From Escherichia coli (GTDB lineage Bacteria; Pseudomonadota; Gammaproteobacteria; Enterobacterales; Enterobacteriaceae), in the NCBI RefSeq assembly GCF_003790525.1, contig NZ_CP033635.1: a DNA stretch of 64,000 bases. One strand, given 5' to 3'. A program made the position numbers and the translations under genes. The notes under the pieces are model-generated. The model saw nothing but the letters and a program-made list of their open reading frames with translations. It ran no database searches and was not told where the DNA came from. Positions 31,380-53,225 of this stretch are shown here, in pieces. Position 1 is the stretch's first letter; each line of letters opens with the position of its first letter.

Positions 31380-31404
31380 GACGAGGATCCGTAATTCAAA
31401 ACCC

Positions 31405-34184: not shown

Positions 34185-34244
34185 ATAACCCTCTAATTCA
34201 TTGTTATTTCAGTAAAAGCCTCACATTCGTGAGGCTGTCTGGTA

Positions 34245-35786
<1,542 letters not shown>

Positions 35787-35805
35787 TTATAAAAATTGCT
35801 AAAAT

Positions 35806-35879
35806 GCTAAACCGGTTTAGGTGTTGATAATAAAGCTGACTTTTTAGCCAGAGCAATTATTTTCGCTAAACCGATTTAG
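35806..35879. promoter_or_regulatory. two palindromic operator-like sites (gctaaaccggtttag at 35806-35820; gctaaaccgatttag at 35865-35879) in the scrY promoter region
   Basis: near-perfect LacI-type palindromes TAAACCGGTTTA in the scrK-scrY intergenic region. Confidence 0.55.
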
Positions 35880-35929
35880 TAAATGTGACAGGCACGACAA
35901 ATCGGGTTACAGATACAACAGCAGGATCA

Positions 35930-36850
35930 CTATTGTGAAGGGAGATCGTGTTGTCGGGGTAAGGCGGTTATCGCGCCTTTAGCCGTGGTCGCCAGAGCAC
36001 CACAAATCTGAGCTTGTGCAATGATTCGTTCAAGCTGTCTGGTATTTGTTGGTATTCCAGAATCAGCCAGACCTGCAAGTAATCCAGCGACAAAAGCATC
36101 TCCTGCCCCGGTCGTATCGACGACAGAAACAGGTTTGGCGGGATAGTGGATAAACTGCCCCTGAAAATACACAAGTACGCCATTTTTTCCTTGTGTAATA
36201 AGCAATAAAGTCAACGAATAACGTTGTACTAATGAATATGCGCCTTGCTGAACCTGGCTTTCGCCACTGATGAATAGCAACTCTTCTTCGGACAATTTAG
36301 CGATATTCGCCAGCGAAAGTGCGCGATCAAGGTATTTCCTTAATAGCGCTTCACTCTGCCAGAGATCGCTGCGGATATTGGGATCAAAACTGATGTTTCC
36401 GCCAGCCTGACGTATTTTCTCCATAGCCAGAAATGCGGTACTTCGGGAAGGTTCTGCACTGAGCGCAATGGAACAAAGATGGAGCCATTCACCCGGCCCA
36501 AATGCAGGAAGGTCACCAGGTTGTAAAAAAAGATCGGCACTTGGGCGTACCATAAAGGTAAAGTTTCTTTCTCCTTGCTCATCAAGTCCTACAGCCACAA
36601 TTGAGGTGCGTTGTTGAGGATCAAGAGACATATAATGTGTATCAACATTTTCTGTACTCAGTGTCTGATACATAAAGCGACCGAAAGGATCATCGCCAAC
36701 TTTGCCAATAAAGGCACTTTTCCCCCCCAGCCTTGCGATACCGACTGCAACATTAGCAGGCGCCCCGCCAGGACACTGTAGTAGTCTCCCCTGGCTTTCG
36801 GGTAATAAATCAACAACCGCATCACCGAGTACCCATACTCTTGCGCTCAT
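35930..36850 (-). CDS. scrK: fructokinase (PfkB family)
   Basis: 306 aa with PfkB signature (DTTGAGDAF). Confidence 0.85.
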   Translation of the reverse strand: MSARVWVLGDAVVDLLPESQGRLLQCPGGAPANVAVGIARLGGKSAFIGKVGDDPFGRFMYQTLSTENVDTHYMSLDPQQRTSIVAVGLDEQGERNFTFMVRPSADLFLQPGDLPAFGPGEWLHLCSIALSAEPSRSTAFLAMEKIRQAGGNISFDPNIRSDLWQSEALLRKYLDRALSLANIAKLSEEELLFISGESQVQQGAYSLVQRYSLTLLLITQGKNGVLVYFQGQFIHYPAKPVSVVDTTGAGDAFVAGLLAGLADSGIPTNTRQLERIIAQAQICGALATTAKGAITALPRQHDLPSQ

Positions 36851-37014: not shown

Positions 37015-38493
37015 TTACGCATTCGACCAGCTCTGGATCGAATCTTCATTCCCCAGCTCACCATGCATCACTTCATACGATTTTTTCAGGATCACATCAG
37101 TGTGCTTGGTTAGGTCTTTGAAAATGCCTTTATTCATCGCGTCGTAGCGTTTGGCGTTGCTCTCAACAGGCATAAAGATATCTTTCACGCGAACCATTTT
37201 GTCGACAGCCGTTGCGTAATCCGGGTATAGCCCCAGACCTGCCGCCGTATTGATCGCAGCCCCCAGACTTGCACAACCATTAATGGCGTTTCGGCGTGCC
37301 GGAAGGTTGAACACGTCGGCAAAAATCTGCATAAACAGATCGCTGTTCGAACCGCCGCCAGTAATGATCACATGCTTTGCAAAGTGATTCATTTCATTAC
37401 ACATATTGTCGTAATTGTTCTTCAGCGTCAGCGCCACGCTTTCCAGTATCGAACGATATATCCATGCGTAATCCATGCTGGAATCAAAGCCGATCATAAT
37501 CCCGCGTTTGTATGGTTCCCACGGATTGGTCAGCCAGTCCAGCACCGTCATCAGACCATTACAGCCAGGCGGCACACAAGACGCTTTTTTGTTGAGCAAA
37601 TCTTCCGGTGAAAGATCCTGTGCTTTGGCATCCTGAATTAACGACTCGCCTAGCATGTCGCGTAGCCAGCTCACCGTCCACATGCCTTTGCGAATACCGT
37701 AACCTTCATACAGCAAGGTTTGCGGAATAGAAGACATAATCGGCCAGTACGCTACCGGATCTTTCGGCAGTGCTTTGCCGTTCATCATCAACGCGATGTA
37801 AGTGCCAAGAGAAATTACCGCCGTTTCATCATCCAGTAACCCTGCTCCCAGTGCTTCTACCGGTTTATCACTGGTGGTACAAACAACGGGCAGTCCAACC
37901 GGGAAATGTGTCGCCAGCGCGGCTTGTGGTGTGATATGCCCAAGAACAGTGCCCGGCATTTGCACATCAAAAAGCATCTGTCGGGGAATATTAAACTTCT
38001 CCATTACCGCGGTATCTTCGCTCCATGCCCAGGTCTTATAATCCACCGGCCACTGACCAAAATAGTTGGCGATATTGTCTTTAAACTCGCCGGTTAAACG
38101 GTGTGTCAGATAACCTGAAAAAGAGGTGACATATGCCACATCAGGATTGGTGTGCTCGTAGGGACGTGTAACGCGTGCATCCTGCCAGCTAATCAACGGC
38201 GCAGCTGGCGTGCCATCGGCTTTCAATAACGCACGGCAGCAACGGATGGATCCCAGACCAATACCGACAATATCTTCTTTATTTCCGGCAAACTGACTCA
38301 TCAAATCGTGACCGGCAAAACATAATGATGCCCATAAATCGTCGTCAGGATGTTCTGCGGTATCGGCATCTGGCGTGTGCATCGGCTGCAATAAGCCTTT
38401 GCCTTCGCAAACCACATTACCTTCCAGATCATACATCACCACTTTTGTGCTCTGACTTCCGCCATCAATCCCTATGATGTATTTTTTCGACAT
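37015..38493 (-). CDS. ygcE: FGGY-family carbohydrate kinase
   Basis: 492-aa FGGY kinase; conserved K-12 position. Confidence 0.85.
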   Translation of the reverse strand: MSKKYIIGIDGGSQSTKVVMYDLEGNVVCEGKGLLQPMHTPDADTAEHPDDDLWASLCFAGHDLMSQFAGNKEDIVGIGLGSIRCCRALLKADGTPAAPLISWQDARVTRPYEHTNPDVAYVTSFSGYLTHRLTGEFKDNIANYFGQWPVDYKTWAWSEDTAVMEKFNIPRQMLFDVQMPGTVLGHITPQAALATHFPVGLPVVCTTSDKPVEALGAGLLDDETAVISLGTYIALMMNGKALPKDPVAYWPIMSSIPQTLLYEGYGIRKGMWTVSWLRDMLGESLIQDAKAQDLSPEDLLNKKASCVPPGCNGLMTVLDWLTNPWEPYKRGIMIGFDSSMDYAWIYRSILESVALTLKNNYDNMCNEMNHFAKHVIITGGGSNSDLFMQIFADVFNLPARRNAINGCASLGAAINTAAGLGLYPDYATAVDKMVRVKDIFMPVESNAKRYDAMNKGIFKDLTKHTDVILKKSYEVMHGELGNEDSIQSWSNA

Positions 38494-38519
38494 GATTTTT
38501 CTCCTGTAATTTTCTGGAC

Positions 38520-39797
38520 TTACTTGCTGCTAGCCATAGCAGGGGCGCTATCAGCAGTACGAATTTTTTGGAACAGCAAAAAGGTAAAGATGATCACCAT
38601 GGCAAGCGCCGCCATGCCCATTAGCCACATGTTGCGGTAGGCTTCTGCAGCGGGCAGGGTGTCTTGCCAGTGGCCGATAATCGGGTAAACGAAGACATCC
38701 GGCAGGAATCCAATCACCGAACAAATACCTACCGTGGTGCCCATAATGTAAGACGGTGTTCTCGCTTCGCCGGGGCAGGCCCAGTACAGTCCACGTGAGG
38801 CGTAGCAGGTGAATCCCAGTAGTAAAATCAGGCCAATCCCCATAGCGACCGATTGCGGGTTAGAGTTGGTAACAAGCAGGGCAGTCAGTGCCAGCAGGCC
38901 GATGATGGAAAGGATTTGAATTACGCGGGTAGGGGATTTCACTTTACTGTAGGTGGTGATAATGCCGCCAAGTGGACCACACAGCGCGCGGAAGATTTTG
39001 TTGATCACAATCCCCATGTAGCTCGCCGCCACCAGCGACATGCCGTACATTTCGGTGAGATAGTTGGTGGAGTAACTCAGAATGGCGTAGATGGTGAAGA
39101 CGCCAAAAATCACCATGCTGCAATACCAGGTGGTGCTGATGCGCAAAACAGCCAGGATGTCGCTAAGCTGGAATGATTGTTTTTCTTCGTTATTGGCACT
39201 GCGCAGGTTGTTGTTATCGCTAACAAAAAACCAGCACAGAATCCCCAACAAGATGTAAACCACACTATAGATGATAATGACCGTTTTCAGGCTGGCGCTG
39301 TCATCCGGTGCAAAGCGAGAAAAGACCCACATGGTAAACACCGCCAGCGACATTACACCGACGCCGCGCAGCCCTTCCATCCAGCCCATAATTTTCCCTT
39401 GCTCGCTATGATCGCCCAGCAACGATGCGGCTTTAATCGACACCGACCACAGCATTAAAATCGTCGTTATCGCAAAGGCAACCTGAATACAGAGCATTAC
39501 CCACAGCGGTGGATAAGTTGCCATTAACAGACCCAGTAATCCGGTAATGATCATCGCGGAAGTAATCATTTTGCGATGTGAGAATTTATCGGCAATAACG
39601 CCACTGGGCGCATAAAGAATAATAGCTGCAATACCAAAGGTACTCATTATTAAACCTATCTCGGTATTGCTGAATCCCATAAATTTCGCCATGGGAATTT
39701 GATAAATATAACGTAAATAAGCCAGGTCGAAACTAACGCCGCCGCTAAAACTAATTATCGCGAGGGTTATCCAACGGCGATATGAGTTGTGTTGCAT
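38520..39797 (-). CDS. yqcE: MFS transporter
   Basis: 425-aa polytopic MFS protein downstream of ygcE. Confidence 0.8.
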   Translation of the reverse strand: MQHNSYRRWITLAIISFSGGVSFDLAYLRYIYQIPMAKFMGFSNTEIGLIMSTFGIAAIILYAPSGVIADKFSHRKMITSAMIITGLLGLLMATYPPLWVMLCIQVAFAITTILMLWSVSIKAASLLGDHSEQGKIMGWMEGLRGVGVMSLAVFTMWVFSRFAPDDSASLKTVIIIYSVVYILLGILCWFFVSDNNNLRSANNEEKQSFQLSDILAVLRISTTWYCSMVIFGVFTIYAILSYSTNYLTEMYGMSLVAASYMGIVINKIFRALCGPLGGIITTYSKVKSPTRVIQILSIIGLLALTALLVTNSNPQSVAMGIGLILLLGFTCYASRGLYWACPGEARTPSYIMGTTVGICSVIGFLPDVFVYPIIGHWQDTLPAAEAYRNMWLMGMAALAMVIIFTFLLFQKIRTADSAPAMASSK

Positions 39798-40043
39798 ATC
39801 GTATTCCCATTTGTAATAGACAAAAAAAAGAGAAAAGTAAGCCGCCCTTTCAGGTGGATTACTTTTCTCAGGTCTCTAGTAATTGCAATAAGAAATAACA
39901 TGGAAAGCAGTGGTGTTGTGTGAGAGTAGTCACGCTTCTGCTTTTTAAAATTATTTGACAATACGAATATCACACTGTGATTACGATCACATTAGCGCTT
40001 ATGCCCTTATGCTAAAAATTATCTCCAGTTACCAGAGATAATG

Positions 40044-40090
40044 AGAAAGGTAACTTCCCTCTCGCGGGGGAAGTTACCTTTCTTTTTTTT
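40044..40090 (+). terminator. intrinsic-terminator-like hairpin plus T8 in the ygcW leader
   Basis: 17-bp stem gagaaaggtaacttccc / gggaagttacctttctt followed by tttttttt, ending 25 nt before the ygcW ATG. Confidence 0.5.
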
Positions 40091-40114
40091 GCTTTACGGA
40101 AATTGGAGTTAACT

Positions 40115-40900
40115 ATGTCAATCGAATCTCTCAATGCGTTCTCAATGGATTTTTTCTCCCTGAAAGGTAAAACAGCAATTGTTACCGGCGGGAATAGCGG
40201 TTTAGGCCAGGCATTTGCCATGGCGTTGGCCAAAGCTGGCGCAAATGTCTTTATCCCTAGCTTCGTCAAAGATAACGGCGAAACAAAGGAAATGATTGAA
40301 AAACAGGGTGTCGAAGTTGATTTTATGCAGGTGGATATCACCGCAGAAGGCGCGCCGCAGAAGATTATCGCTGCCTGCTGTGAGCGCTTCGGTACCGTAG
40401 ATATTCTGGTTAACAATGCCGGTATTTGTAAGCTGAATAAGGTGCTGGACTTTGGTCGTGCCGACTGGGACCCGATGATTGACGTGAACCTGACCGCCGC
40501 ATTCGAGTTAAGCTATGAAGCTGCAAAAATTATGATCCCGCAGAAAAGCGGTAAAATCATTAATATCTGTTCATTATTCTCTTACTTAGGTGGACAATGG
40601 TCACCTGCATATTCTGCCACTAAACATGCTCTTGCCGGATTCACCAAAGCTTATTGTGATGAACTAGGTCAATATAATATTCAGGTAAATGGTATTGCCC
40701 CTGGATATTACGCTACCGATATCACCCTGGCGACACGCAGTAATCCAGAAACCAATCAGCGCGTTCTTGATCATATTCCAGCAAACCGTTGGGGCGATAC
40801 TCAGGATTTAATGGGCACAGCCATATTTCTCGCAAGTCCGGCATCGAATTATGTCAACGGACATTTATTAGTGGTTGATGGCGGTTATTTAGTGCGCTAA
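40115..40900 (+). CDS. ygcW: short-chain dehydrogenase/reductase
   Basis: 261 aa from MSIESLN; Rossmann TGGNSGLG motif; GGAG RBS. Confidence 0.85.
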   Translation: MSIESLNAFSMDFFSLKGKTAIVTGGNSGLGQAFAMALAKAGANVFIPSFVKDNGETKEMIEKQGVEVDFMQVDITAEGAPQKIIAACCERFGTVDILVNNAGICKLNKVLDFGRADWDPMIDVNLTAAFELSYEAAKIMIPQKSGKIINICSLFSYLGGQWSPAYSATKHALAGFTKAYCDELGQYNIQVNGIAPGYYATDITLATRSNPETNQRVLDHIPANRWGDTQDLMGTAIFLASPASNYVNGHLLVVDGGYLVR

Positions 40901-40969
40901 TCCATAACGGTGGTTTCTGTTTTCTCTTATTAATGATTATTCCATTTTTATTATCAGGAAGGAATTACT

Positions 40970-42424
40970 ATGTCTTTATCTCGCGCAGCGATTGTCGACC
41001 AGCTAAAGGAAATTGTTGGTGCAGATCGCGTAATTACCGATGAAACAGTATTAAAGAAAAACAGTATTGACCGTTTTCGCAAATTTCCGGATATTCATGG
41101 CATTTATACTTTGCCTATTCCGGCAGCGGTCGTAAAACTCGGTTCCACAGAGCAAGTGTCCCGTGTGCTGAATTTTATGAATGCGCACAAAATTAACGGT
41201 GTGCCGCGTACCGGTGCTTCCGCCACTGAAGGCGGGCTGGAAACCGTTGTGGAAAACTCGGTGGTGCTCGACGGCTCTGCCATGAATCAAATCATTAATG
41301 TTGATATTGAGAATATGCAGGCCACGGCGCAATGTGGCGTTCCGCTGGAGGTGCTGGAAAACGCGTTGCGTGAAAAAGGTTACACCACGGGGCATTCACC
41401 GCAATCAAAACCGCTGGCGCAGATGGGCGGCCTGGTAGCAACCCGCAGTATCGGGCAGTTCTCCACACTCTACGGCGCAATCGAAGATATGGTCGTTGGT
41501 CTGGAAGCAGTATTGGCTGATGGCACCGTCACACGTATTAAAAACGTACCACGCCGCGCGGCAGGCCCGGACATTCGTCACATTATCATCGGCAACGAAG
41601 GTGCATTGTGCTATATCACTGAAGTAACAGTGAAAATCTTTAAGTTCACCCCGGAAAACAACCTCTTCTACGGCTATATCCTGGAAGACATGAAAACCGG
41701 CTTCAACATCCTGCGTGAAATCATGGTGGAAGGGTATCGTCCGTCGATCGCTCGTTTGTATGACGTTGAAGATGGCACCCAACACTTCACCCATTTTGCC
41801 GACGGTAAATGTGTGCTGATCTTTATGGCTGAAGGTAACCCTCGCATTGCGAAGGCGACGGGTGAAGGGATTGCTGAAATCGTGGCGCGCTACCCGCAGT
41901 GCCAGCGCGTGGACAGCAAGCTGATCGAAACCTGGTTTAACAACCTGAACTGGGGACCGGATAAAGTGGCTGCCGAACGTGTGCAGATCCTCAAAACCGG
42001 CAACATGGGCTTTACCACCGAAGTGTCCGGCTGCTGGAGCTGCATCCACGAAATCTACGAAAGCGTTATTAACCGTATTCGCACCGAGTTCCCGCACGCC
42101 GACGACATCACCATGCTGGGCGGTCACTCCTCTCATAGCTATCAGAACGGCACCAACATGTACTTCGTCTACGACTACAACGTCGTTGACTGTAAGCCGG
42201 AAGAGGAAATCGACAAGTACCACAATCCGCTCAACAAAATCATTTGCGAAGAAACCATTCGCCTCGGCGGTTCGATGGTGCACCACCACGGTATTGGTAA
42301 ACATCGCGTTCACTGGAGCAAACTGGAACACGGCAGCGCGTGGACGTTGCTGGAAGGGCTGAAAAAACAGTTCGATCCTAACGGCATTATGAATACGGGT
42401 ACTATCTATCCGATTGAAAAATAA
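40970..42424 (+). CDS. ygcU: FAD-linked oxidoreductase
   Basis: 484-aa FAD-binding PCMH-type oxidase fold. Confidence 0.8.
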   Translation: MSLSRAAIVDQLKEIVGADRVITDETVLKKNSIDRFRKFPDIHGIYTLPIPAAVVKLGSTEQVSRVLNFMNAHKINGVPRTGASATEGGLETVVENSVVLDGSAMNQIINVDIENMQATAQCGVPLEVLENALREKGYTTGHSPQSKPLAQMGGLVATRSIGQFSTLYGAIEDMVVGLEAVLADGTVTRIKNVPRRAAGPDIRHIIIGNEGALCYITEVTVKIFKFTPENNLFYGYILEDMKTGFNILREIMVEGYRPSIARLYDVEDGTQHFTHFADGKCVLIFMAEGNPRIAKATGEGIAEIVARYPQCQRVDSKLIETWFNNLNWGPDKVAAERVQILKTGNMGFTTEVSGCWSCIHEIYESVINRIRTEFPHADDITMLGGHSSHSYQNGTNMYFVYDYNVVDCKPEEEIDKYHNPLNKIICEETIRLGGSMVHHHGIGKHRVHWSKLEHGSAWTLLEGLKKQFDPNGIMNTGTIYPIEK

Positions 42425-42517
42425 TGTGTGAGGCAGCGTTCCGCGATGACGGGGCGTTGCCTTTTCGGCTTCTCAGGCGAGAAGCCGTTCTTATTACCGG
42501 ACAATGAAGGGGTAAAG

Positions 42518-43855
42518 ATGAACACTTCACCGGTGCGAATGGATGATTTACCACTTAACCGTTTTCACTGCCGCATTGCTGCGCTCACTTTCGGTGCGCA
42601 CCTGACCGACGGTTATGTCCTCGGCGTCATTGGTTACGCCATTATTCAGCTTACGCCCGCCATGCAACTGACGCCGTTTATGGCGGGAATGATTGGCGGC
42701 TCAGCACTCCTTGGTTTGTTTCTTGGCAGCCTGGTTCTTGGATGGATCTCCGACCATATTGGTCGGCAAAAAATCTTCACCTTCAGCTTTTTGCTGATTA
42801 CGCTCGCTTCGTTCTTGCAATTTTTTGCCACCACGCCAGAGCATCTTATTGGGCTGCGCATTTTGATCGGCATTGGTCTGGGAGGCGATTACTCAGTCGG
42901 TCACACCTTGCTGGCTGAATTTTCCCCGCGCCGCCATCGCGGTATTTTACTGGGCGCATTCAGCGTGGTGTGGACCGTAGGCTATGTGTTGGCAAGTATT
43001 GCCGGACATCACTTTATTTCCGAAAACCCGGAGGCCTGGCGCTGGCTGCTGGCATCAGCGGCGTTACCAGCCTTGCTGATTACGCTGCTACGTTGGGGCA
43101 CGCCGGAATCGCCACGCTGGCTACTGCGCCAGGGACGTTTTGCTGAAGCTCACGCTATTGTGCATCGCTATTTGGGGCCACATGTTTTACTGGGCGATGA
43201 AGTGGCAGCGGCGACCCATAAACACATCAAAACCTTGTTTTCTTCGCGCTACTGGCGACGCACGGCGTTTAACAGCGTCTTCTTTGTCTGCCTCGTAATC
43301 CCATGGTTTGTGATTTATACCTGGCTGCCGACCATCGCCCAGACTATTGGTCTGGAGGATGCGCTGACCGCCAGCCTGATGCTTAATGCGTTGTTAATTG
43401 TGGGCGCGCTGCTGGGATTAGTTCTGACGCACCTGCTGGCACATCGCAAGTTTTTGCTGGGAAGTTTTTTGCTGCTGGCGGCAACGCTGGTAGTGATGGC
43501 CTGTTTGCCTTCCGGCAGTTCATTAACGCTGCTGCTTTTTGTTCTCTTCAGCACCACCATTTCGGCAGTCAGTAATCTGGTGGGCATTTTGCCTGCGGAA
43601 AGTTTTCCTACTGACATTCGCTCGCTGGGCGTCGGTTTTGCCACCGCCATGAGTCGGTTGGGGGCGGCGGTAAGTACTGGCCTGCTGCCGTGGGTGCTGG
43701 CGCAGTGGGGAATGCAAGCCACCTTATTGCTCCTGGCGGCAGTGTTGTTGGTTGGTTTTGTTGTGACCTGGCTATGGGCACCAGAAACCAAAGCACTCCC
43801 GCTGGTGGCGGCGGGAAATGTAGGAGGTGCGAATGAACATTCTGTTAGCGTTTAA
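42518..43855 (+). CDS. ygcS: MFS sugar-porter-family transporter
   Basis: 445 aa from MNTSPVR; MFS sugar transporter signatures; track start 42428 is an extension. Confidence 0.8.
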   Translation: MNTSPVRMDDLPLNRFHCRIAALTFGAHLTDGYVLGVIGYAIIQLTPAMQLTPFMAGMIGGSALLGLFLGSLVLGWISDHIGRQKIFTFSFLLITLASFLQFFATTPEHLIGLRILIGIGLGGDYSVGHTLLAEFSPRRHRGILLGAFSVVWTVGYVLASIAGHHFISENPEAWRWLLASAALPALLITLLRWGTPESPRWLLRQGRFAEAHAIVHRYLGPHVLLGDEVAAATHKHIKTLFSSRYWRRTAFNSVFFVCLVIPWFVIYTWLPTIAQTIGLEDALTASLMLNALLIVGALLGLVLTHLLAHRKFLLGSFLLLAATLVVMACLPSGSSLTLLLFVLFSTTISAVSNLVGILPAESFPTDIRSLGVGFATAMSRLGAAVSTGLLPWVLAQWGMQATLLLLAAVLLVGFVVTWLWAPETKALPLVAAGNVGGANEHSVSV

Positions 43856-44612
43856 AGCCGAACCGGATGCCGGAATGCTGGCGGAAAAAGAGTGGCAGGC
43901 GGCGGCTCAGGGTAATATTGGACCAGATGTTTCGCTACTGCGAAGTTTACTCGGTGCTGATGAACAGGCTGCCGCCGCGCTGCTGTTGGCGCAGAGAAAA
44001 AATGGTACTCCGATGTCTTTAACCGCGTTGAGCATGGGGGATGAACGGGCGTTGCACTGGCTGCGCTATCTCATGGCTCTTGGGTTTGAGGAAGCTGTAT
44101 TGCTGGAGACGGCGGCAGATCTGCGCTTTGCGCCGGAATTTGTCGCTCGCCATATTGCCGAGTGGCAGCATCAGAATCCGCTGGATCTGATCATTACCGG
44201 CTGCCAAAGCAGCGAAGGACAGAATGGGCAAACGCCATTTTTGCTGGCGGAAATGCTGGGCTGGCCCTGTTTCACCCAGGTGGAGCGTTTCACACTCGAC
44301 GCGCCGTTTATCACCCTCGAACAGCGTACTGAAAATGGGGTGCGCTGTTGCCGGGTTCGCTTGCCTGCGGTGATTGCCGTGCGTCAGTGCGGTGAAGTGG
44401 CCTTGCCAGTACCGGGAATGCGCCAGCGAATGGCTGCGGGGAAAGCAGAAATTATCCGTAAAACTGTTGCTGTCGAATTGCCAGCGATGCAGTGTCTGCA
44501 ACTGGCAAGAGCAGAGCAACGACGCGGAGCGACGCTGATTGATGGGCAAACGGTAGCAGAAAAAGCGCAAAAGCTATGGCAGGACTATTTACGCCAAAGG
44601 ATGCAGCCATGA
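43833..44612 (+). CDS. ygcR: electron-transfer flavoprotein beta-subunit-like (FixA-like)
   Basis: 259 aa; AGGAGG RBS before ATG 43833; overlaps ygcS end. Confidence 0.75.
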   Translation: MNILLAFKAEPDAGMLAEKEWQAAAQGNIGPDVSLLRSLLGADEQAAAALLLAQRKNGTPMSLTALSMGDERALHWLRYLMALGFEEAVLLETAADLRFAPEFVARHIAEWQHQNPLDLIITGCQSSEGQNGQTPFLLAEMLGWPCFTQVERFTLDAPFITLEQRTENGVRCCRVRLPAVIAVRQCGEVALPVPGMRQRMAAGKAEIIRKTVAVELPAMQCLQLARAEQRRGATLIDGQTVAEKAQKLWQDYLRQRMQP

Positions 44613-45469
44613 ATATCGCCATTGTGACAATAAATCAGGAGAATGCCGCAATAGCGAGCTGGCTGGCAGAACAGGATTTCAGCGGTTGTACCCTGGCGCA
44701 CTGGCAGATTGAACCTCAGCCCGTAGTGGCGGAACAGGTGCTGGATGCGTTGGTGGAACAGTGGCAGCGAACGCCTGCGGACGTTGTTCTCTTTCCGCCG
44801 GGAACGTTTGGCGATGAACTGTCGACCCGGCTGGCCTGGCGTTTACATGGTGCAAGCATCTGCCAGGTGACTTCGTTAGATATTCCAACCGTAAGCGTGC
44901 GCAAATCCCACTGGGGAAATGCGTTGACGGCGACGCTGCAAACAGACAAACGCCCGCTATGCCTTTCGCTGGCACGTCAGGCGGGAGCAGATAAAAACGC
45001 CACGTTGTCCTCTGGGATGCAGCAACTGAACATTGTCCCCGGCGCGCTTCCCGACTGGCTGGTTAGCCTAGAAAACCTGAAAAATGTTACCCGCGACCCA
45101 TTAGCTGAAGCCAGACGGGTGCTGGTGGTGGGGCAGGGCGGAGAGGCAGATAACCAGGAAATCGCTATGCTGGCAGAAAAGCTGGGAGCCGAAGTGGGCT
45201 ACAGTCGGGCACGAGTGATGAACGGTGGCGTTGATGCCGAAAAAGTCATTGGTATTTCCGGACATCTGCTGGCACCTGAGGTGTGTATTGTTGTTGGTGC
45301 TTCCGGCGCAGCAGCGTTAATGGCGGGCGTACGCAATAGCAAGTTTGTGGTGGCGATTAATCATGACGCCAGCGCAGCGGTATTTTCACAGGCAGATGTT
45401 GGCGTGGTTGATGACTGGAAAGTGGTGCTGGAGGCACTGGTGACAAACATTCACGCAGATTGCCAATAA
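44609..45469 (+). CDS. ygcQ: electron-transfer flavoprotein alpha-subunit-like (FixB-like)
   Basis: 286 aa; ATGA overlap with ygcR stop. Confidence 0.75.
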   Translation: MNIAIVTINQENAAIASWLAEQDFSGCTLAHWQIEPQPVVAEQVLDALVEQWQRTPADVVLFPPGTFGDELSTRLAWRLHGASICQVTSLDIPTVSVRKSHWGNALTATLQTDKRPLCLSLARQAGADKNATLSSGMQQLNIVPGALPDWLVSLENLKNVTRDPLAEARRVLVVGQGGEADNQEIAMLAEKLGAEVGYSRARVMNGGVDAEKVIGISGHLLAPEVCIVVGASGAAALMAGVRNSKFVVAINHDASAAVFSQADVGVVDDWKVVLEALVTNIHADCQ

Positions 45470-45473
45470 CGTG

Positions 45474-45580
45474 TTGCCGGATGATCCTGCCTACGGTTCT
45501 GGCCTGGGGACTTGTAGGCCTGATAAGACGCGTCAAGCGTCGCATCAGGCGCTGAATGTCGGATGTGGCGTGCAGCCTAC
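45474..45580. repeat. REP/BIME cluster
   Basis: several REP units (gtaggcctgataagacgcgtcaagcgtcgcatcaggc etc.) between convergent ygcQ and ygcP. Confidence 0.75.
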
Positions 45581-45615
45581 AAATCACACAAATTCAATTC
45601 GTTACGATTATCCCG

Positions 45616-46191
45616 TTAAAGCAATTTTTTCGCCAACGTCCAGACCCCGGTATTCGTGGTGGAAAGCGCCACGACACCCGCGTTAATCGCATTACGCGCA
45701 TCTTCTTCATCGCACACCAGCCCGCCGGCAATCAGCGGTTGGCGGATTTTCTCCGTCACCCAGCCCAGCACTTTGGGCATACAGCCAGGCAGGATCTCAA
45801 TACAATCCGGATTCGATTGCGCAACTTGCTTATCAATGTTGTGAAACGAAATCGAATCAACAATAAACAGTCGATGAATACAGAAAAAACCTTCCGCTCT
45901 TGCTGCTTTCAGCATTGAGGCTTTGGTACTGATAATTCCGTCCGCCTCGGTCACCAGTTTCAAAAACTGAATCACCACTTCTTTATTTGACGCGCCTTCC
46001 AGCAAATCAACATGAATAAAAGCATATTTCCCGGCGTTCTTAATCTTTTTAACGATATTACTAATGGTGCAGATATTGCCGTACAACACGGAAATAAACT
46101 GGCATTCAGAGTCGATTGCCAGTTGCAGGCTGGCATTATCTTTAACGGCAGCAATCACCGGATTCTGGCGGAGCAGGTGTAAGAGGGGCAT
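45616..46191 (-). CDS. ygcP: GlpP-like glycerol-3-phosphate-responsive antiterminator family protein
   Basis: 191-aa ORF; family and position as in K-12. Confidence 0.7.
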   Translation of the reverse strand: MPLLHLLRQNPVIAAVKDNASLQLAIDSECQFISVLYGNICTISNIVKKIKNAGKYAFIHVDLLEGASNKEVVIQFLKLVTEADGIISTKASMLKAARAEGFFCIHRLFIVDSISFHNIDKQVAQSNPDCIEILPGCMPKVLGWVTEKIRQPLIAGGLVCDEEDARNAINAGVVALSTTNTGVWTLAKKLL

Positions 46192-46207
46192 AAATTATCC
46201 TTATTAT

Positions 46208-46468
46208 TTATCCAAAACGGTAGGTGATGCCGAATCCGGAAGGTGGATAGCGCCACTGTTGTAGTGTTTTTTCGTCGCACAGCAAACGGCAGGTGCCACA
46301 CTCCAGGCAACTGCGATAGTCAATACGTAAGTCACCTTCTGGTGTGAGCGAAAAAAGACCAGCCGGACAAGCGTTAATCAACCATTGTACCGTCTGACGC
46401 TCAACGGAGTCAGCCGGAACAATGTGCGGCGCATCGGCAACGCGCCAGAGATTACGGGCTACAGACAT
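46208..46468 (-). CDS. ygcO: ferredoxin-like protein (FixX-like)
   Basis: about 86 aa with Cys cluster (CLECGTCRLLC). Confidence 0.7.
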   Translation of the reverse strand: MSVARNLWRVADAPHIVPADSVERQTVQWLINACPAGLFSLTPEGDLRIDYRSCLECGTCRLLCDEKTLQQWRYPPSGFGITYRFG

Positions 46469-47730
46469 CGCAGACTCCTGATAACATCGCCCGCCAGATG
46501 CCACAGGCCGTGACGACGTAAATGACGCCAGAATAACTGGTGCAGCGGTGGAACAGGTTTATCACCCTGATCCCATAAATCGCGGGAAATATCCTGCATT
46601 AACGCAGGCCACGCCCGATACCAGCCAGGGCGTTGCAAAAGCGCCGGAACATGCTGATAACGTTGTAGAACATCCCACAGCAGGCTGCGCTCTACGTTGT
46701 GATGATAAAGCGCAAACAGATTTTGCGGCTCGCGGTGCTGGCAGGCGCTTATCAGCGTTTGTGCCGCCGCCTGCGCGCCAGTTAGCGCCATATCCATGCC
46801 GCGCACGGAAATTCCGGTATTGACGCAACTGCGCAACGTATCGCCCACCAGCAGCCAGCCGTTACCGGCGTATTGCACCTGCATACTGTGCAAGCCACCT
46901 TCTGGCACCAGATGCGCACCATACTCCAGTGATTCCGTGTTTTTGATAAGCGGGCGCACTGCCGGATGCGTTTTAAAGCGAGCCAGCAGCTCGCTTGCCG
47001 GAACACGACTTTGCGTAAGTGAAGAGAGCGGGCAAACAATCCCTAACGAGAGCGTTTGTTGATTAGTATAAAGAAATGCGCCGCCGGGTAAGTCATCACA
47101 GATCCCGCCGCTGAACAGCAACGCTGCGCCTTCGTTATTCTCCAGATGAAAACGTTCTTCAATAGCGGATGTTTCCAGCGACAGCACTTCTTTGATCCCC
47201 AACGCCATCGCTTCGCCAGCAGGACGAGTCACTAACCCGTGACGTTCAGCCAGGACGCTGTTGGCACCTTCTGCCAGCACCACATAACGGGCGCGGAGAA
47301 TATCGTCACCACAAATGACACCACACACCCTGCCGTTTTCTTCATACAGCGCATCCACCGTCGCACCGGGGATGCATTCGACACCTTCTTTTTCGGCTTC
47401 GGCAACCAGCCACGGATCGAACCGTGCACGTAATACACTCCAGGATTCACCGCCGGGCTGTAAGCTGGAAAACGTCGTTGCGCCATCCGGCGTTAACAGG
47501 GAAAGGCTTTCGTGAGTGATGCGTCGTTCAAGAGGCGCGGTCAGATGAAATTGTGGGAGGAGTTCCGCGAGCGCCTGGGTATATAAACGCCCGCCGGAAA
47601 GATTTTTGCTGCCGGGGATTTCAGCGCGTTCCAGTAACAAAACGGATAAACCCGCTCGCGCGCAGCGTAACGCGCAAGCGGTGCCTGCAATACCGGCACC
47701 AATAATAATAATGTCGCAGTCGTCTTCCAT
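46459..47730 (-). CDS. ygcN: FAD-dependent oxidoreductase (FixC-like)
   Basis: about 423 aa; N-terminal GAGIAG dinucleotide-binding motif. Confidence 0.8.
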   Translation of the reverse strand: MEDDCDIIIIGAGIAGTACALRCARAGLSVLLLERAEIPGSKNLSGGRLYTQALAELLPQFHLTAPLERRITHESLSLLTPDGATTFSSLQPGGESWSVLRARFDPWLVAEAEKEGVECIPGATVDALYEENGRVCGVICGDDILRARYVVLAEGANSVLAERHGLVTRPAGEAMALGIKEVLSLETSAIEERFHLENNEGAALLFSGGICDDLPGGAFLYTNQQTLSLGIVCPLSSLTQSRVPASELLARFKTHPAVRPLIKNTESLEYGAHLVPEGGLHSMQVQYAGNGWLLVGDTLRSCVNTGISVRGMDMALTGAQAAAQTLISACQHREPQNLFALYHHNVERSLLWDVLQRYQHVPALLQRPGWYRAWPALMQDISRDLWDQGDKPVPPLHQLFWRHLRRHGLWHLAGDVIRSLRCL

Positions 47731-47807
47731 GTCATGCCCCAGATATCCAGAACACAACACCCTAACATAGCGTTACTTAAGGGAAATTGACCGCCGACAC
47801 ACTCTTA

Positions 47808-53072: not shown

Positions 53073-53225
53073 ATGCTGACAAAATATGCCCTTGTGGCAA
53101 TCATAGTGCTGTGTTTTACAGTACTGGGATTCACGCTGATGGTAGGCGACTCGTTGTGTGAGTTGAGTATCAGAGAACGTGGTATGGAGTTTAAGGCGGT
53201 TCTCGCTTACGAATCGAAGAAGTAG
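53073..53225 (+). CDS. Hok/Gef-family type I toxin (HokE-like small membrane peptide)
   Basis: 50-aa [53 protein letters not shown]; single TM helix, conserved Cys and C-terminal AYES motif; GGGAGG RBS; not in the supplied ORF track (below length cut-off). Confidence 0.8.

What the first reader, a model, noticed from the sequence alone, without database searches (positions are those of the whole stretch)
37015..47760. Uncharacterised sugar-catabolism-like cluster with FixABCX-type electron-transfer genes
Two MFS transporters, an FGGY kinase, an SDR, an FAD-linked oxidase and a GlpP-like antiterminator sit next to ETF alpha/beta-like, FixC-like and ferredoxin-like genes. FixABCX-type modules usually feed electrons to or from a specific dehydrogenase, which suggests an unknown polyol or sugar-acid pathway. 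The cluster lacks an assigned substrate.
Basis: partly seen in the sequence, partly recalled or inferred. Interest (0 to 1): 0.4.

Follow-up and report, generated by a model that had tools for sequence, protein, structure and literature searches.

The report
E. coli ygc cluster, antiterminator-controlled pathway
This is the uncharacterised ygc gene cluster of E. coli: a switchable breakdown pathway of still unknown substrate, built around a kinase, a dehydrogenase and a flavoenzyme resembling the ether-lipid enzyme AGPS, and apparently controlled by a previously undescribed leader-RNA switch conserved across bacterial phyla.

Summary
Window 37015-47760 is the E. coli cluster ygcE-yqcE / ygcWUSRQ / ygcNOP, and every domain assignment holds. 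I found no paper that assigns a substrate.

New points:
1. The conserved core across phyla is SDR YgcW, flavoenzyme YgcU and FGGY kinase YgcE, usually with the GlpP-like YgcP. The ETF (YgcRQ) follows YgcU in many lineages but is missing in others. FixCX (YgcNO) is seen only in Enterobacterales.
2. YgcU is closest to alkyl-DHAP synthase (AGPS) by sequence and fold. It keeps AGPS's catalytic Arg, Tyr and HHH loop, not the EHG motif that the glycolate oxidase/D-lactate dehydrogenase hit and the second oxidase carry.
3. Both divergent leaders (40024-40092 +, 39822-39887 -) carry one conserved antiterminator/terminator RNA, flanking a perfect CRP site. The RNA has covariation support, no Rfam match, and co-occurs with GlpP-like genes from Vibrio to Firmicutes.
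4. Outside enterobacteria the same RNA precedes BCCT and OpuC-type transporters and MttB-family methyltransferases. This points to a quaternary-amine-type substrate there.

Best reading (inferred): an inducible pathway that phosphorylates and oxidises a C1-substituted glycerol-like compound to a DHAP-like ketone. YgcU then processes it, electronically coupled to ETF.

The parts
37015..38493 (-). ygcE, FGGY-family kinase (492 aa)
   Evidence: Pfam FGGY_N and FGGY_C. Best NCBIfam hits are XylB and AI-2 kinase, far below their cut-offs. Best PDB hit is LsrK at 1e-28, then glycerol kinases. An invariant member of the core across phyla at 44-57% identity.
38520..39797 (-). yqcE, MFS transporter (425 aa)
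   Evidence: Pfam MFS_1. Weak match to the D-galactonate transporter subfamily. YqcE-like MFS genes lie inside the operon in Vibrio, some Bacillaceae and metagenomic loci.
39822..39887 (-). yqcE-ygcE leader RNA element: antiterminator motif, intrinsic terminator (hairpin 39869-39830) and U8 run
   Evidence: Covariance model R1 scores 72 bits, E 8e-13. Fold z-score is -3.2. ATTACT at 39883-39878 can pair with AGTAAT at 39863-39858 in the terminator 5' arm.
39976..39991 (.). perfect CRP-type palindrome TGTGATTACGATCACA between the two leaders
   Evidence: The only match in the 64 kb window, against 0.08 expected. Found about 45 nt upstream of the plus-strand motif in all but a few Enterobacterales loci, perfect in 29 of the 48 loci scanned. 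Ranked among the top CRP predictions by PhyloScan (PMC1794230).
40024..40092 (+). ygcWUSRQ leader RNA element: antiterminator motif, 19-bp intrinsic terminator (40043-40084) and U run, 23 nt before the ygcW start codon
   Evidence: Terminator scan. Fold energy -37.5 kcal/mol, z-score -6.8. Model R1 scores 76.7 bits, E 7e-14. GTTACC at 40028-40033 can pair with GGTAAC at 40049-40054.
40115..40900 (+). ygcW, SDR oxidoreductase (261 aa)
   Evidence: Pfam adh_short. KduD-like at 348.6 bits, below the 369 cut-off. The most conserved core gene, 62-79% identity to Firmicutes homologues.
40970..42424 (+). ygcU, AGPS-like FAD enzyme (484 aa)
   Evidence: Pfam FAD_binding_4 and FAD-oxidase_C. Best PDB sequence hit is AGPS at 4e-40. 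R262, Y398 and H438-440 are invariant in 135 homologues and align with AGPS R419, Y578 and H615-617. AF2 model has pLDDT 82.4; best Foldseek hit is AGPS at 6.5e-32, TM 0.77-0.80.
42446..43855 (+). ygcS, MFS sugar-porter/aromatic-acid-type transporter (469 aa)
   Evidence: Pfam Sugar_tr. Travels with the ETF genes in Enterobacterales but sits in a different LysR-linked operon in Erwinia, Pantoea and Serratia. It is 26.5% identical to the niacin transporter NiaP; overexpression raises NMN yield from nicotinamide (PMC8601175).
43833..44612 (+). ygcR, ETF beta/FixA-like subunit (259 aa); overlaps ygcS by 23 nt
   Evidence: Pfam ETF. NCBIfam ETF-beta and FixA hits are below their cut-offs.
44609..45469 (+). 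ygcQ, ETF alpha/FixB-like subunit (286 aa)
   Evidence: Pfam ETF_alpha plus a partial ETF domain. PDB hits are human ETF alpha at 3e-23 and LctC at 4e-21. The N-terminal domain is about 25-35 aa shorter than in Serratia, Rahnella and Firmicutes orthologues.
45616..46191 (-). ygcP, GlpP-family antiterminator-like protein (191 aa)
   Evidence: Pfam G3P_antiterm at 210 bits. PDB 3KTS, a glycerol uptake operon antiterminator, at 1e-27. It is 96-97% identical between E. coli and Citrobacter or Klebsiella and 51-60% identical to Firmicutes homologues.
46208..46468 (-). ygcO, FixX-like ferredoxin-like protein (86 aa)
   Evidence: NCBIfam FixX E 1e-22, at 80 bits below the 166 cut-off. Weak Fer4 matches.
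46459..47730 (-). ygcN, FixC-like ETF:quinone oxidoreductase (423 aa)
   Evidence: NCBIfam PRK10015 and FixC subfamily hits at E 5e-112 and 1e-107. Pfam ETFQO_UQ-bd. PDB T. maritima FixC (7KOE) at 3e-54.

Best explanation
This is an inducible catabolic pathway for a small hydroxylated compound that has not been identified.

**Regulation (well supported by computation).** A CRP-dependent divergent promoter region drives two transcripts, ygcWUSRQ and yqcE-ygcE. Each begins with the same leader RNA, which folds into a strong intrinsic terminator just before the first start codon. A 6-nt segment upstream, (G/A)UUAC(C/U), can instead pair with the 5' arm of the terminator. The GlpP-family protein YgcP is proposed to stabilise this antiterminator when it binds the pathway's phosphorylated intermediate, as B. 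subtilis GlpP does with glycerol-3-phosphate at the glp leaders.

**Chemistry (inferred).**
1. The substrate enters through the MFS carriers.
2. YgcE phosphorylates a terminal hydroxyl.
3. YgcW oxidises the adjacent secondary alcohol to a ketone. This gives a dihydroxyacetone-phosphate-like molecule carrying a substituent on C1.
4. YgcU acts on C1 through its flavin, using the same Tyr/Arg/His-His-His machinery as alkyl-DHAP synthase. It removes or exchanges the substituent and leaves a triose-phosphate-type product.
5. YgcU's flavin exchanges electrons with the dedicated ETF YgcRQ. In enterobacteria, YgcN/YgcO wire this ETF to the quinone pool. The direction of electron flow is not determined.

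**Substrate class.** In Firmicutes, Desulfobacterota-type and Vibrio relatives, the same RNA-defined regulon contains BCCT and OpuC-type importers and MttB-family methyltransferases. There the substituent or substrate is most likely of the quaternary-amine (betaine/choline-like) class. Whether E. coli uses the same compound is open.
For: **Core and synteny**
- SDR, YgcU and kinase are present in essentially every locus that carries YgcU and has enough flanking sequence, across Enterobacterales, Bacillaceae, Negativicutes, Clostridia, Desulfobacterales, Spirochaeta and Vibrio.

**YgcU is AGPS-like**
- The best PDB sequence hit is AGPS.
- R262, Y398 and H438-440 are invariant in 135 homologues and align with AGPS R419, Y578 and H615-617.
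- AGPS is the best Foldseek match at 6.5e-32.
- The glycolate oxidase/D-lactate dehydrogenase hit 9QGZ and the second oxidase carry EHG where YgcU has HHH.

**A parallel triad exists**
- P. aeruginosa PA3026-PA3024 combines an oxidoreductase that its authors place at the alkyl-DHAP synthase step, a GlpD-like dehydrogenase and an FGGY kinase (PMC8151288).
- Locus L070 carries both triads back to back. Its 561-aa oxidase keeps the R, Y and HHH residues.

**ETF partnership**
- EtfB starts within 0-40 nt of the YgcU stop codon in ten loci from several phyla.

**RNA element**
- There are two copies in the window and none elsewhere in its 64 kb.
- The terminator is 87.6% paired, with 9 pairs changing on both sides.
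- The antiterminator helix is 93.5% paired, against 17-54% when the partner is slid. It shows G-C to A-U exchange in 12 sequences and U-A to C-G in 9.
- No Rfam family matches.
- Among the loci searched with R1, the element is present wherever a GlpP-like gene is near the core and absent from those without one.

**CRP site**
- The site is unique in the window and sits at a near-constant spacing in most loci.

**Regulon**
- The element directly precedes BCCT genes, OpuC-type ABC operons and MttB-PanB-like-ABC operons.

**Known precedent**
- The GlpP mechanism in B. subtilis uses a promoter, a GlpP site and an inherent terminator in the 5' UTR (PMC9604022; PMC10573289).
Against: - No experiment supports any step. 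RNA binding by YgcP, the inducer and all enzyme activities are inferred.
- AGPS chemistry is redox-neutral, so the conserved ETF partner is not explained by a simple AGPS-type substitution. YgcU may instead catalyse a net oxidation or reduction.
- YgcU shares only about 24% identity with AGPS and lacks AGPS's first 150 or so residues.
- D-lactate dehydrogenases are nearly as good structural matches (1.7e-27).
- YgcW looks like KduD or gluconate 5-dehydrogenase, and YqcE looks like sugar-acid carriers. These would fit a sugar-acid route.
- E. coli itself has no BCCT, OpuC or MttB gene in the cluster, so the quaternary-amine link is an extrapolation for E. coli.
- The order of the kinase and SDR steps is assumed.
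Confidence: 0.5

Rival explanations
1. Sugar-acid or 2-hydroxy-acid route. YgcU is an ETF-dependent D-2-hydroxyacid-type dehydrogenase, like LctD or D-lactate dehydrogenase. It would feed electrons through YgcRQ and YgcNO to quinone. YgcW would act as a KduD-like keto-sugar-acid reductase and YgcE as a sugar(-acid) kinase.
For: - D-lactate dehydrogenases and LctD of the Ldh-EtfAB complex are strong structural matches (1.7e-27 and 9e-27).
- ETF genes follow ygcU in many phyla.
- YgcW scores 348.6 bits against a KduD model.
- YqcE matches the galactonate-transporter subfamily.
- The CRP site is typical of sugar operons.
Against: - YgcU has HHH where the glycolate oxidase/D-lactate dehydrogenase hit 9QGZ has EHG, a motif I attribute (from my own knowledge) to the metal site of this enzyme class. 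It keeps the AGPS Tyr and Arg, invariantly.
- AGPS ranks above every dehydrogenase by sequence and by fold.
- A true GlcD/LDH-type oxidase with EHG is present as a separate gene next to the ETF in anaerobes.
- The regulon carries BCCT, OpuC and MttB genes, not sugar-acid genes such as aldolases or dehydratases.
Confidence: 0.15
2. An alternative, mainly anaerobic, glycerol or glycerol-3-phosphate route. YgcE would be a glycerol or dihydroxyacetone kinase and YgcW a glycerol dehydrogenase. YgcU-ETF-FixCX would form a glycerol-3-phosphate:quinone oxidoreductase. YgcP would sense glycerol-3-phosphate itself.
For: - YgcP belongs to the glycerol-3-phosphate antiterminator family.
- Glycerol kinases are among the best PDB hits for YgcE.
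- An AGPS-like pocket is expected to accommodate a DHAP moiety (inference).
- The FixC-like YgcN suggests delivery to quinone.
Against: - E. coli already has GlpK, GlpD and GlpABC.
- In P. aeruginosa and L070, an AGPS-like enzyme (in PA3026's case on its authors' assignment) sits in one operon with a GlpD-like dehydrogenase. That would be redundant if the AGPS-like enzyme were itself the G3P dehydrogenase.
- Plain glycerol does not explain BCCT or OpuC importers and MttB methyltransferases under the same RNA switch.
- The YgcP subfamily is over 50% identical across phyla and distinct from canonical GlpP, whose PDB relative is matched at only 100 bits.
Confidence: 0.1
3. A biosynthetic role: making alkyl-DHAP-type ether-lipid precursors, as proposed for P. 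aeruginosa PA3026-PA3024.
For: - The AGPS catalytic residues are conserved.
- Two PlsC/GNPAT-type acyltransferase genes lie directly upstream of the GlpP-like gene in a Syntrophomonadaceae locus.
- The authors of PMC8151288 suggested this for the Pseudomonas triad.
Against: - A CRP site, importers inside the operons and inducible antitermination are hallmarks of catabolism.
- YgcU lacks about 150 N-terminal residues of AGPS.
- E. coli is not known to make ether lipids (own knowledge).
- The regulon includes betaine-type importers and MttB.
Confidence: 0.04

Closest known systems
Bacillus subtilis GlpP / glpD, glpFK, glpTQ leader antitermination
   Same: - The regulator belongs to the same Pfam family, PF04309 (210 bits).
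- The architecture matches: a promoter followed by a 5' UTR holding a conditional intrinsic terminator that the protein overrides (PMC9604022 and PMC10573289).
- Several transcription units share one leader motif.
   Different: - YgcP belongs to a separate, highly conserved subfamily.
- It controls an SDR/AGPS-like/kinase pathway and betaine-type importers rather than the glp genes.
- The ligand is unknown.
- I could not obtain the B. subtilis leader sequences, so I could not test whether the RNA motif is shared.
- To my knowledge, no GlpP-type antitermination has been described in E. coli.
Alkyl-dihydroxyacetone-phosphate synthase (AGPS, EC 2.5.1.26; PDB 4BBY, 2UUU)
   Same: - It is the best sequence and fold match to YgcU.
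- YgcU residues aligned with AGPS's catalytic Arg419, Tyr578 and His615-617 loop are invariant across the family.
- AGPS's substrate is a C1-substituted DHAP. That is exactly what a kinase plus a C2 dehydrogenase would produce.
   Different: - Identity is only about 24%.
- YgcU lacks the first 150 or so residues of AGPS.
- YgcU is encoded next to a dedicated ETF, which AGPS does not use.
- The context is catabolic and bacterial rather than peroxisomal lipid synthesis.
FixABCX / ETF-quinone modules (E. coli fixABCX next to cai, ydiQRST; T. maritima FixABCX, PDB 7KOE)
   Same: All four protein types are present: ETF beta, ETF alpha, a FixC-like flavoprotein with a ubiquinone-binding domain, and a FixX-like ferredoxin.
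   Different: - The genes are split. ygcRQ end the ygcW operon, and ygcNO lie with ygcP on the other strand.
- All scores are below the NCBIfam cut-offs.
- YgcQ has a shortened N-terminal domain.
- The module is accessory to the pathway in other taxa.
- Bifurcation was not tested.
Acetobacterium woodii Ldh-EtfAB (LctBCD, PDB 7QH2)
   Same: - A VAO-fold flavoenzyme is encoded next to EtfB and EtfA.
- LctD is a close structural relative of YgcU.
- Anaerobe loci carry a second, LctD-like oxidase. In one case (L068) there is also a second ETF with a ferredoxin domain, like LctC.
   Different: - YgcU has AGPS-type rather than lactate-dehydrogenase-type active-site residues.
- E. coli has no second oxidase.
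Pseudomonas aeruginosa PA3026-PA3024 (GliR regulon)
   Same: - An operon combining an FGGY kinase, a dehydrogenase for the C2 alcohol (GlpD-like there, SDR here) and PA3026, an oxidoreductase its authors place at the alkyl-DHAP synthase step (PMC8151288).
- A triad with the same composition sits back to back with the ygc-type triad in locus L070, and its oxidase keeps the AGPS residues.
   Different: - The regulator is AraC-type, with no ETF and no leader RNA.
- The L070 oxidase is only 29% identical to YgcU; I did not compare PA3026's own sequence.
- The function is also unknown: the deletion had no phenotype on Biolog plates.

Membership tests
GlpP-type antitermination system | Regulator with the G3P_antiterm (PF04309) fold | tested here: met
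   YgcP scores 210.6 bits over the full length. PDB 3KTS matches at 1e-27.
GlpP-type antitermination system | Intrinsic terminator in the 5' leader of the regulated operons | tested here: met
   Hairpins at 40043-40084 (+) and 39869-39830 (-) are each followed by a U run and lie 23-30 nt before the start codon. They are conserved, with 9 of 19 pairs changing on both sides.
GlpP-type antitermination system | Alternative (antiterminator) structure or protein site overlapping the terminator | tested here: met
   The helix between columns 5-10 and 26-31 of alignment A1 is 93.5% paired, against 17-54% in slid controls. Two pairs show compensatory change, in 12 and 9 sequences.
GlpP-type antitermination system | Protein binds the leader RNA in response to glycerol-3-phosphate | not testable with these tools
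   The only support is co-occurrence of the element and the GlpP-like gene.
Alkyl-DHAP synthase (AGPS) | VAO/PCMH two-domain FAD fold | tested here: met
   Pfam FAD_binding_4 and FAD-oxidase_C. Foldseek best hit is AGPS at 6.5e-32, TM 0.77-0.80.
Alkyl-DHAP synthase (AGPS) | Catalytic Arg419, Tyr578 and His615-617 loop | tested here: met
   They align with YgcU R262, Y398 and H438-440, which are invariant in 135 family members.
Alkyl-DHAP synthase (AGPS) | N-terminal domain and overall length of AGPS (584-658 aa) | tested here: not met
   YgcU is 484 aa. The alignment starts at AGPS residue 138-215.
Alkyl-DHAP synthase (AGPS) | Acyl-DHAP plus fatty alcohol exchange activity | not testable with these tools
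   Needs an enzyme assay.
GlcD / D-lactate dehydrogenase-type 2-hydroxyacid dehydrogenases | E-H-G motif, which I take (own knowledge) to belong to the metal-binding site, in the C-terminal domain | tested here: not met
   YgcU has H-H-H-G where the glycolate oxidase/D-lactate dehydrogenase hit 9QGZ has G-E-H-G. The neighbouring second oxidase of anaerobes has S-E-H-G.
FixABCX-type ETF module | ETF beta, ETF alpha, FixC-like and FixX-like proteins all encoded | tested here: met
   All NCBIfam scores are below the curated cut-offs.
FixABCX-type ETF module | Four genes forming one operon | tested here: not met
   ygcRQ lie on the + strand at the end of the ygcW operon. ygcNO lie on the - strand with ygcP.
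FixABCX-type ETF module | Two-FAD, electron-bifurcating ETF | not tested
   YgcQ matches non-bifurcating human ETF alpha (3e-23) and LctC (4e-21) about equally. Its N-terminal domain is shortened.
KduD / gluconate 5-dehydrogenase (sugar-acid SDRs) | Score above the NCBIfam equivalog cut-off | tested here: not met
   NF005390 scores 348.6 against a cut-off of 369. TIGR01832 scores 275 against 338.85.

The most novel reading that the evidence does not exclude
The cluster may encode a new, oxygen-independent way of breaking a carbon-heteroatom bond on a glycerol-like skeleton.

The proposed route has three steps:
1. A C1-substituted glycerol or polyol is phosphorylated. Candidates are the deacylated head group of betaine lipids, a glyceryl ether, or a 1-onium or 1-amino-1-deoxy polyol.
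2. It is oxidised to a substituted DHAP.
3. An AGPS-type flavoenzyme runs 'in reverse', coupled to ETF. This frees DHAP and the substituent, which anaerobes then demethylate with MttB-family enzymes.

The whole pathway would be switched by a phylum-spanning GlpP-type leader RNA. That RNA would also be, to my knowledge, the first such antitermination system described in E. coli.
Probability: 0.25. Interest if true: 0.8.

Novelty: new variant of a known kind. Interest (0 to 1): 0.5.

Why it matters
- **A y-ome cluster with a handle.** Ten conserved genes in the best-studied bacterium still lack a function. This work reduces the problem to a testable scheme and supplies a practical tool. The two leader RNAs plus YgcP can serve as a reporter to screen for the inducer.
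- **A new role for AGPS chemistry.** If the AGPS-like reading is right, it would give bacteria a catabolic use for flavin chemistry known so far only from ether-lipid synthesis.
- **A link to quaternary-amine turnover.** It would connect the pathway to quaternary-amine metabolism, and possibly methylamine formation, in guts and sediments.
- **A new regulatory RNA class.** The leader element would be a new, widely distributed cis-regulatory RNA that is absent from Rfam.

Tried and rejected
- **Literature.** Searches for all ten gene names returned only genome-scale lists and three marginal reports. YgcS overexpression helps NMN production. ygcU is 1.69-fold induced by D-serine, but its deletion has no effect. 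CRP-site predictions exist. Searches for FGGY+ETF+BCCT and AGPS+FGGY found nothing.
- **Rfam.** At a permissive E-value, only sub-threshold chance matches appeared in 39700-40200.
- **Comparison with canonical GlpP leaders.** I tried to reach B. subtilis GlpP to compare its leaders. The protein search listed only the YgcP subfamily, and one look-up found no record. The comparison could not be made.
- **D-serine or D-amino-acid oxidase role for YgcU.** Considered and dropped: wrong fold family and no phenotype.
- **YgcS as a clue to the substrate.** It is not part of the conserved core. In Erwinia, Pantoea and Serratia it lies in a separate operon with Fae-like, aldo-keto reductase and aldehyde dehydrogenase genes.
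- **Bifurcating versus non-bifurcating ETF.** PDB hits did not discriminate.
- **Specific substrates.** I weighed carnitine, glycerophosphocholine, DHPS, betaine-lipid head groups and Amadori compounds. The evidence neither proves nor excludes any of them, so I name none as the answer.

Full report
**What is there**

The region 37015-47760 is 100% identical to E. coli SMS-3-5. It corresponds to the annotated genes:
- ygcE, an FGGY kinase
- yqcE, an MFS transporter
- ygcW, an SDR
- ygcU, an FAD-binding oxidoreductase
- ygcS, an MFS transporter
- ygcR and ygcQ, ETF beta and alpha
- ygcP, a 'glycerol-3-phosphate responsive antiterminator'
- ygcO, a ferredoxin-family protein
- ygcN, an FAD-dependent oxidoreductase

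YgcN matches FixC models at E 1e-107 and the solved T. maritima FixC at 3e-54. YgcO matches FixX at 1e-22. No protein reaches an NCBIfam equivalog cut-off, so none has a curated function.

The cluster is present at 80% coverage or more in 5060 of 5426 complete E. coli genomes. Full-text searches for all ten gene names found no functional study.

**What is conserved**

YgcU homologues at more than 70% identity occur far outside the enterobacteria. I fetched 65 genome loci, several annotated contigs and 39 metagenome loci.

The SDR, YgcU and the kinase are always together, in:
- Enterobacterales
- halophilic Bacillaceae
- Sporomusa
- a Syntrophomonadaceae MAG
- Desulfobacterales
- Spirochaeta
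- Vibrio hannami

A GlpP-like gene accompanies them in most lineages. Some Bacillaceae carry an RpiR-type regulator instead.

The ETF genes follow ygcU directly in ten non-enterobacterial loci. They are absent from Erwinia, Pantoea, Izhakiella, some Serratia and all the aerobic Bacillaceae loci. FixC and FixX homologues are seen only in Enterobacterales.

Between E. coli and Citrobacter or Klebsiella, YgcW, YgcU and YgcP are 93-97% identical. YgcQ, YgcR, YgcO and YgcN are only 55-77% identical.

**YgcU**

- By sequence, the best solved relatives are mammalian and Dictyostelium alkyl-DHAP synthase (4e-40). Glycolate oxidase, D-lactate dehydrogenases and LctD follow.
- In the pairwise alignments, YgcU R262, Y398 and H438-H440 fall on AGPS R419, Y578 and H615-617. 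These are the positions mutated in PDB entries 4BC7 (R419H) and 4BCA (Y578F).
- All five residues are invariant in 135 YgcU-family sequences.
- Where the glycolate oxidase/D-lactate dehydrogenase hit 9QGZ reads GEHG, YgcU reads HHHG. From my own knowledge, that Glu-His belongs to the metal site of such 2-hydroxy-acid dehydrogenases.
- An AlphaFold2 model (pLDDT 82.4) finds AGPS first in the PDB (6.5e-32, TM 0.77-0.80). D-lactate dehydrogenases follow at about 1e-27.
- YgcU lacks roughly the first 150 residues of AGPS.

It is therefore AGPS-like in its active site but is not an AGPS orthologue.

**A parallel triad**

In P. aeruginosa the GliR-activated operon PA3026-PA3024 encodes three enzymes: PA3026, an oxidoreductase whose authors place it at the alkyl-DHAP synthase step, a GlpD-like dehydrogenase and an FGGY kinase. 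Its function is unknown, and its deletion had no phenotype (PMC8151288). I did not analyse PA3026's sequence myself.

Locus L070 carries such a triad back to back with a ygc-type operon. Its 561-aa oxidase is 29% identical to YgcU and keeps the Arg, Tyr and HHH residues.

Two independent gene sets thus combine a kinase, a dehydrogenase for a secondary alcohol (GlpD-like or SDR) and an AGPS-like enzyme. This is what one expects if the first two steps make a DHAP-type ketone phosphate for the third. It also argues against YgcU simply being a glycerol-3-phosphate dehydrogenase, because that would duplicate the GlpD-like enzyme in the same operon.

**The leader RNA, the best-supported new finding**

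*Layout.* The 317-bp divergent region between yqcE and ygcW contains the only perfect TGTGA-N6-TCACA palindrome in the 64-kb window, at 39976-39991. The expected number is 0.08. PhyloScan had ranked this region among the top CRP predictions.

On each side, just before the first start codon, lies an intrinsic terminator:
- On the + strand, a 19-bp stem at 40043-40084 plus a U run. With the upstream hairpin the fold energy is -37.5 kcal/mol, z-score -6.8.
- On the - strand, a stem at 39869-39830 plus U8.

*Shared sequence.* The two leaders share the sequence CA(G/A)UUAC(C/U)AGAGA...GAGAAA(G/A)GUAA(C/U). The upstream hexamer is complementary to the start of the terminator's 5' arm. Between the two leaders, the two variable positions change together: GUUACC/GGUAAC versus AUUACU/AGUAAU.

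*Covariation.* I aligned 42 distinct elements from Enterobacterales, a Syntrophomonadaceae MAG and two Bacillaceae.
- The antiterminator helix is 93.5% paired, against 17-54% when the partner is slid by 1-3 columns. G-C to A-U exchange occurs in 12 sequences and U-A to C-G in 9.
- The terminator is 87.6% paired, with 9 of 19 pairs changing on both sides.
- These sequences are related and the alignment was seeded with a motif, so the shuffle controls overstate significance. The slid controls and the paralogous compensatory changes are the stronger evidence.

*Specificity.* No Rfam family matches. A covariance model built from the alignment finds exactly these two sites in the window.

*Link to the GlpP-like gene.* In other taxa the model finds the element in every locus searched that has a GlpP-like gene next to the core. 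Those are Sporomusa L002, L055, L062, L068, L069, L071, L072 and Vibrio L073. It finds none in the loci searched that lack such a gene: L003, L004, L054, L059, L060, L063-L066 and L070. In metagenome contigs the GlpP-like gene usually lies immediately upstream of the element.

*CRP spacing.* In most Enterobacterales loci (about 40 of 46) a CRP site sits at a near-constant 44-46 nt from the motif. It is perfect in 29 of the 48 loci scanned. This spacing is compatible with a class II promoter whose transcript starts at about the first base of the element. That reading is inference.

*Precedent.* This architecture is the one described for B. subtilis GlpP: a promoter, a GlpP site and an inherent terminator in the 5' UTR. 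I could not retrieve the B. subtilis leaders to test whether the motif itself is shared.

**What the RNA element says about the pathway**

The element is specific, so the genes behind it define a regulon. Besides the SDR-kinase-YgcU(-ETF) operons, it directly precedes:
- BCCT transporter genes (L002, L068, L071)
- OpuC-type ABC operons with an OpuAC binding protein (L062, L069, L072, L088, L094, L097)
- In five metagenome loci, an uninterrupted MttB-family methyltransferase gene (PF06253, 352 bits), followed by a PanB-like gene and an OpuC-type ABC transporter

In L082 an MttB-family gene closes the SDR-kinase-YgcU-EtfBA operon. In Vibrio hannami a BCCT gene follows the GlpP-like gene in the kinase operon.

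BCCT and OpuC systems and non-pyrrolysine MttB enzymes are, from established knowledge, specialised for quaternary-amine compounds such as betaines, choline and carnitine. In those organisms the substrate, or the group released from it, is therefore very probably of that class.

E. coli has only the two MFS carriers. YqcE-like carriers sit alongside OpuC-type or BCCT genes in the same cluster in L077/L078 and in Vibrio. This is compatible with a zwitterionic substrate but does not prove it.

**Mechanism proposed**

*Shown by computation:*
- gene content
- the conserved core
- AGPS-type active-site residues
- the ETF adjacency
- the two terminators
- the covarying antiterminator
- the CRP site
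- the composition of the regulon

*Inferred:*
1. YgcP binds the leader when loaded with a phosphorylated intermediate and prevents termination.
2. YgcE phosphorylates a terminal hydroxyl.
3. YgcW oxidises the neighbouring secondary alcohol.
4. YgcU acts at C1 of the resulting DHAP-like ketone through its flavin, removing or exchanging the C1 substituent.
5. YgcRQ exchange electrons with YgcU, and YgcNO connect them to quinone.

*The weak point is the ETF.* AGPS chemistry is redox-neutral, so a dedicated ETF suggests one of three things:
- YgcU performs a net oxidation, for example of a C-N or C-O bond next to the carbonyl, followed by hydrolysis.
- YgcU performs a reductive elimination.
- Its flavin must be kept in the right redox state.

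The absence of ETF genes from the aerobic Bacillaceae loci fits an enzyme that can use another acceptor there. The direction of electron flow remains open.

**Rivals**

- **Sugar-acid or 2-hydroxy-acid route.** It is favoured by the KduD-like SDR, the sugar-acid-like carrier and the structural closeness to D-lactate dehydrogenases. It is disfavoured by the active-site residues, by the separate EHG-type oxidase in anaerobes and by the regulon.
- **Second glycerol/G3P route.** It is disfavoured by the Pseudomonas/L070 triads and by the transporters.
- **Ether-lipid biosynthesis.** It is disfavoured by the catabolic regulation and the importers. The two PlsC/GNPAT-type acyltransferase genes in L055 keep it alive at a low level.

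**Novelty and verdict**

The gene cluster itself is known and annotated, and each protein belongs to a known family. The following appear to be new, as far as Rfam and the searchable literature show:
- the definition of the conserved core
- the AGPS-type nature of YgcU
- the phylum-spanning leader RNA with its GlpP-like partner
- the quaternary-amine-type regulon

I rate this a new variant of known kinds, namely GlpP-type antitermination and ETF-linked flavoenzyme pathways. Interest is moderate at 0.5. It is a concrete, testable handle on a long-standing y-ome cluster rather than a demonstrated new mechanism.

Noticed in passing
window 30372-36850: A sucrose utilisation block lies between queE (29615-30286) and ygcE. 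It comprises a LacI-type regulator, sucrose-6-phosphate hydrolase, a sucrose PTS IIBC component, a carbohydrate porin and a fructokinase-like 'aminoimidazole riboside kinase'. From my own recollection, queE lies next to ygcE in K-12, so this may be a strain-variable insertion next to the ygc cluster.
   Followed up: no
window 53073-53225 and from 53420: A Hok/Gef family toxin gene is followed by the start of a type I-E CRISPR-Cas locus (cas3), downstream of cysJIH.
   Followed up: no
window 44609-45469 (ygcQ): In the Escherichia, Citrobacter and Klebsiella lineage, the ETF alpha subunit lacks about 25-35 residues of the N-terminal domain that are present in Serratia, Rahnella and Firmicutes orthologues. 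The ETF and FixCX genes are also much less conserved (55-77%) than ygcW, ygcU and ygcP (93-97%) between E. coli and Citrobacter or Klebsiella.
   Followed up: partly
window 43833-43855: ygcS and ygcR overlap by 23 nt, which suggests translational coupling of a transporter gene with the ETF beta gene. In Erwinia, Pantoea and Serratia the ygcS-like gene lies instead in a LysR-linked operon with Fae-like, aldo-keto reductase and aldehyde dehydrogenase genes.
   Followed up: partly
L070 349-5317: A second triad sits divergently next to a ygc-type operon in an uncultured genome. It comprises an AGPS-like oxidase (561 aa), an FGGY kinase and a GlpD-like dehydrogenase, the same composition as P. aeruginosa PA3026-PA3024.
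   Followed up: partly
L055 5587-6912: Two PlsC/GNPAT-type acyltransferase genes (PF01553) lie directly upstream of the GlpP-like gene in a Syntrophomonadaceae MAG. This is the enzyme family that makes AGPS's substrate in eukaryotes.
   Followed up: no
L100 6230-12098; also L076, L090, L092, L104: The leader RNA element precedes an operon of a non-pyrrolysine MttB-family methyltransferase, a PanB-like (ketopantoate hydroxymethyltransferase family) protein and an OpuC-type ABC transporter. The role of the PanB-like enzyme is unexplained. L055 adds a proline-racemase-family gene to a similar operon.
   Followed up: partly
L078 8480-11546 and L077: In two metagenome loci the operon also encodes a SurE-family phosphatase and a FAD_binding_2 (fumarate-reductase-like) flavoprotein. 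They lie between the kinase and an OpuC-type ABC transporter.
   Followed up: no
L068 14758-16789: One Firmicutes locus has two ETF pairs. One is YgcRQ-like and lies next to YgcU. The other has an N-terminal 4Fe-4S ferredoxin domain, like A. woodii LctC, and lies next to the second EHG-type oxidase.
   Followed up: no
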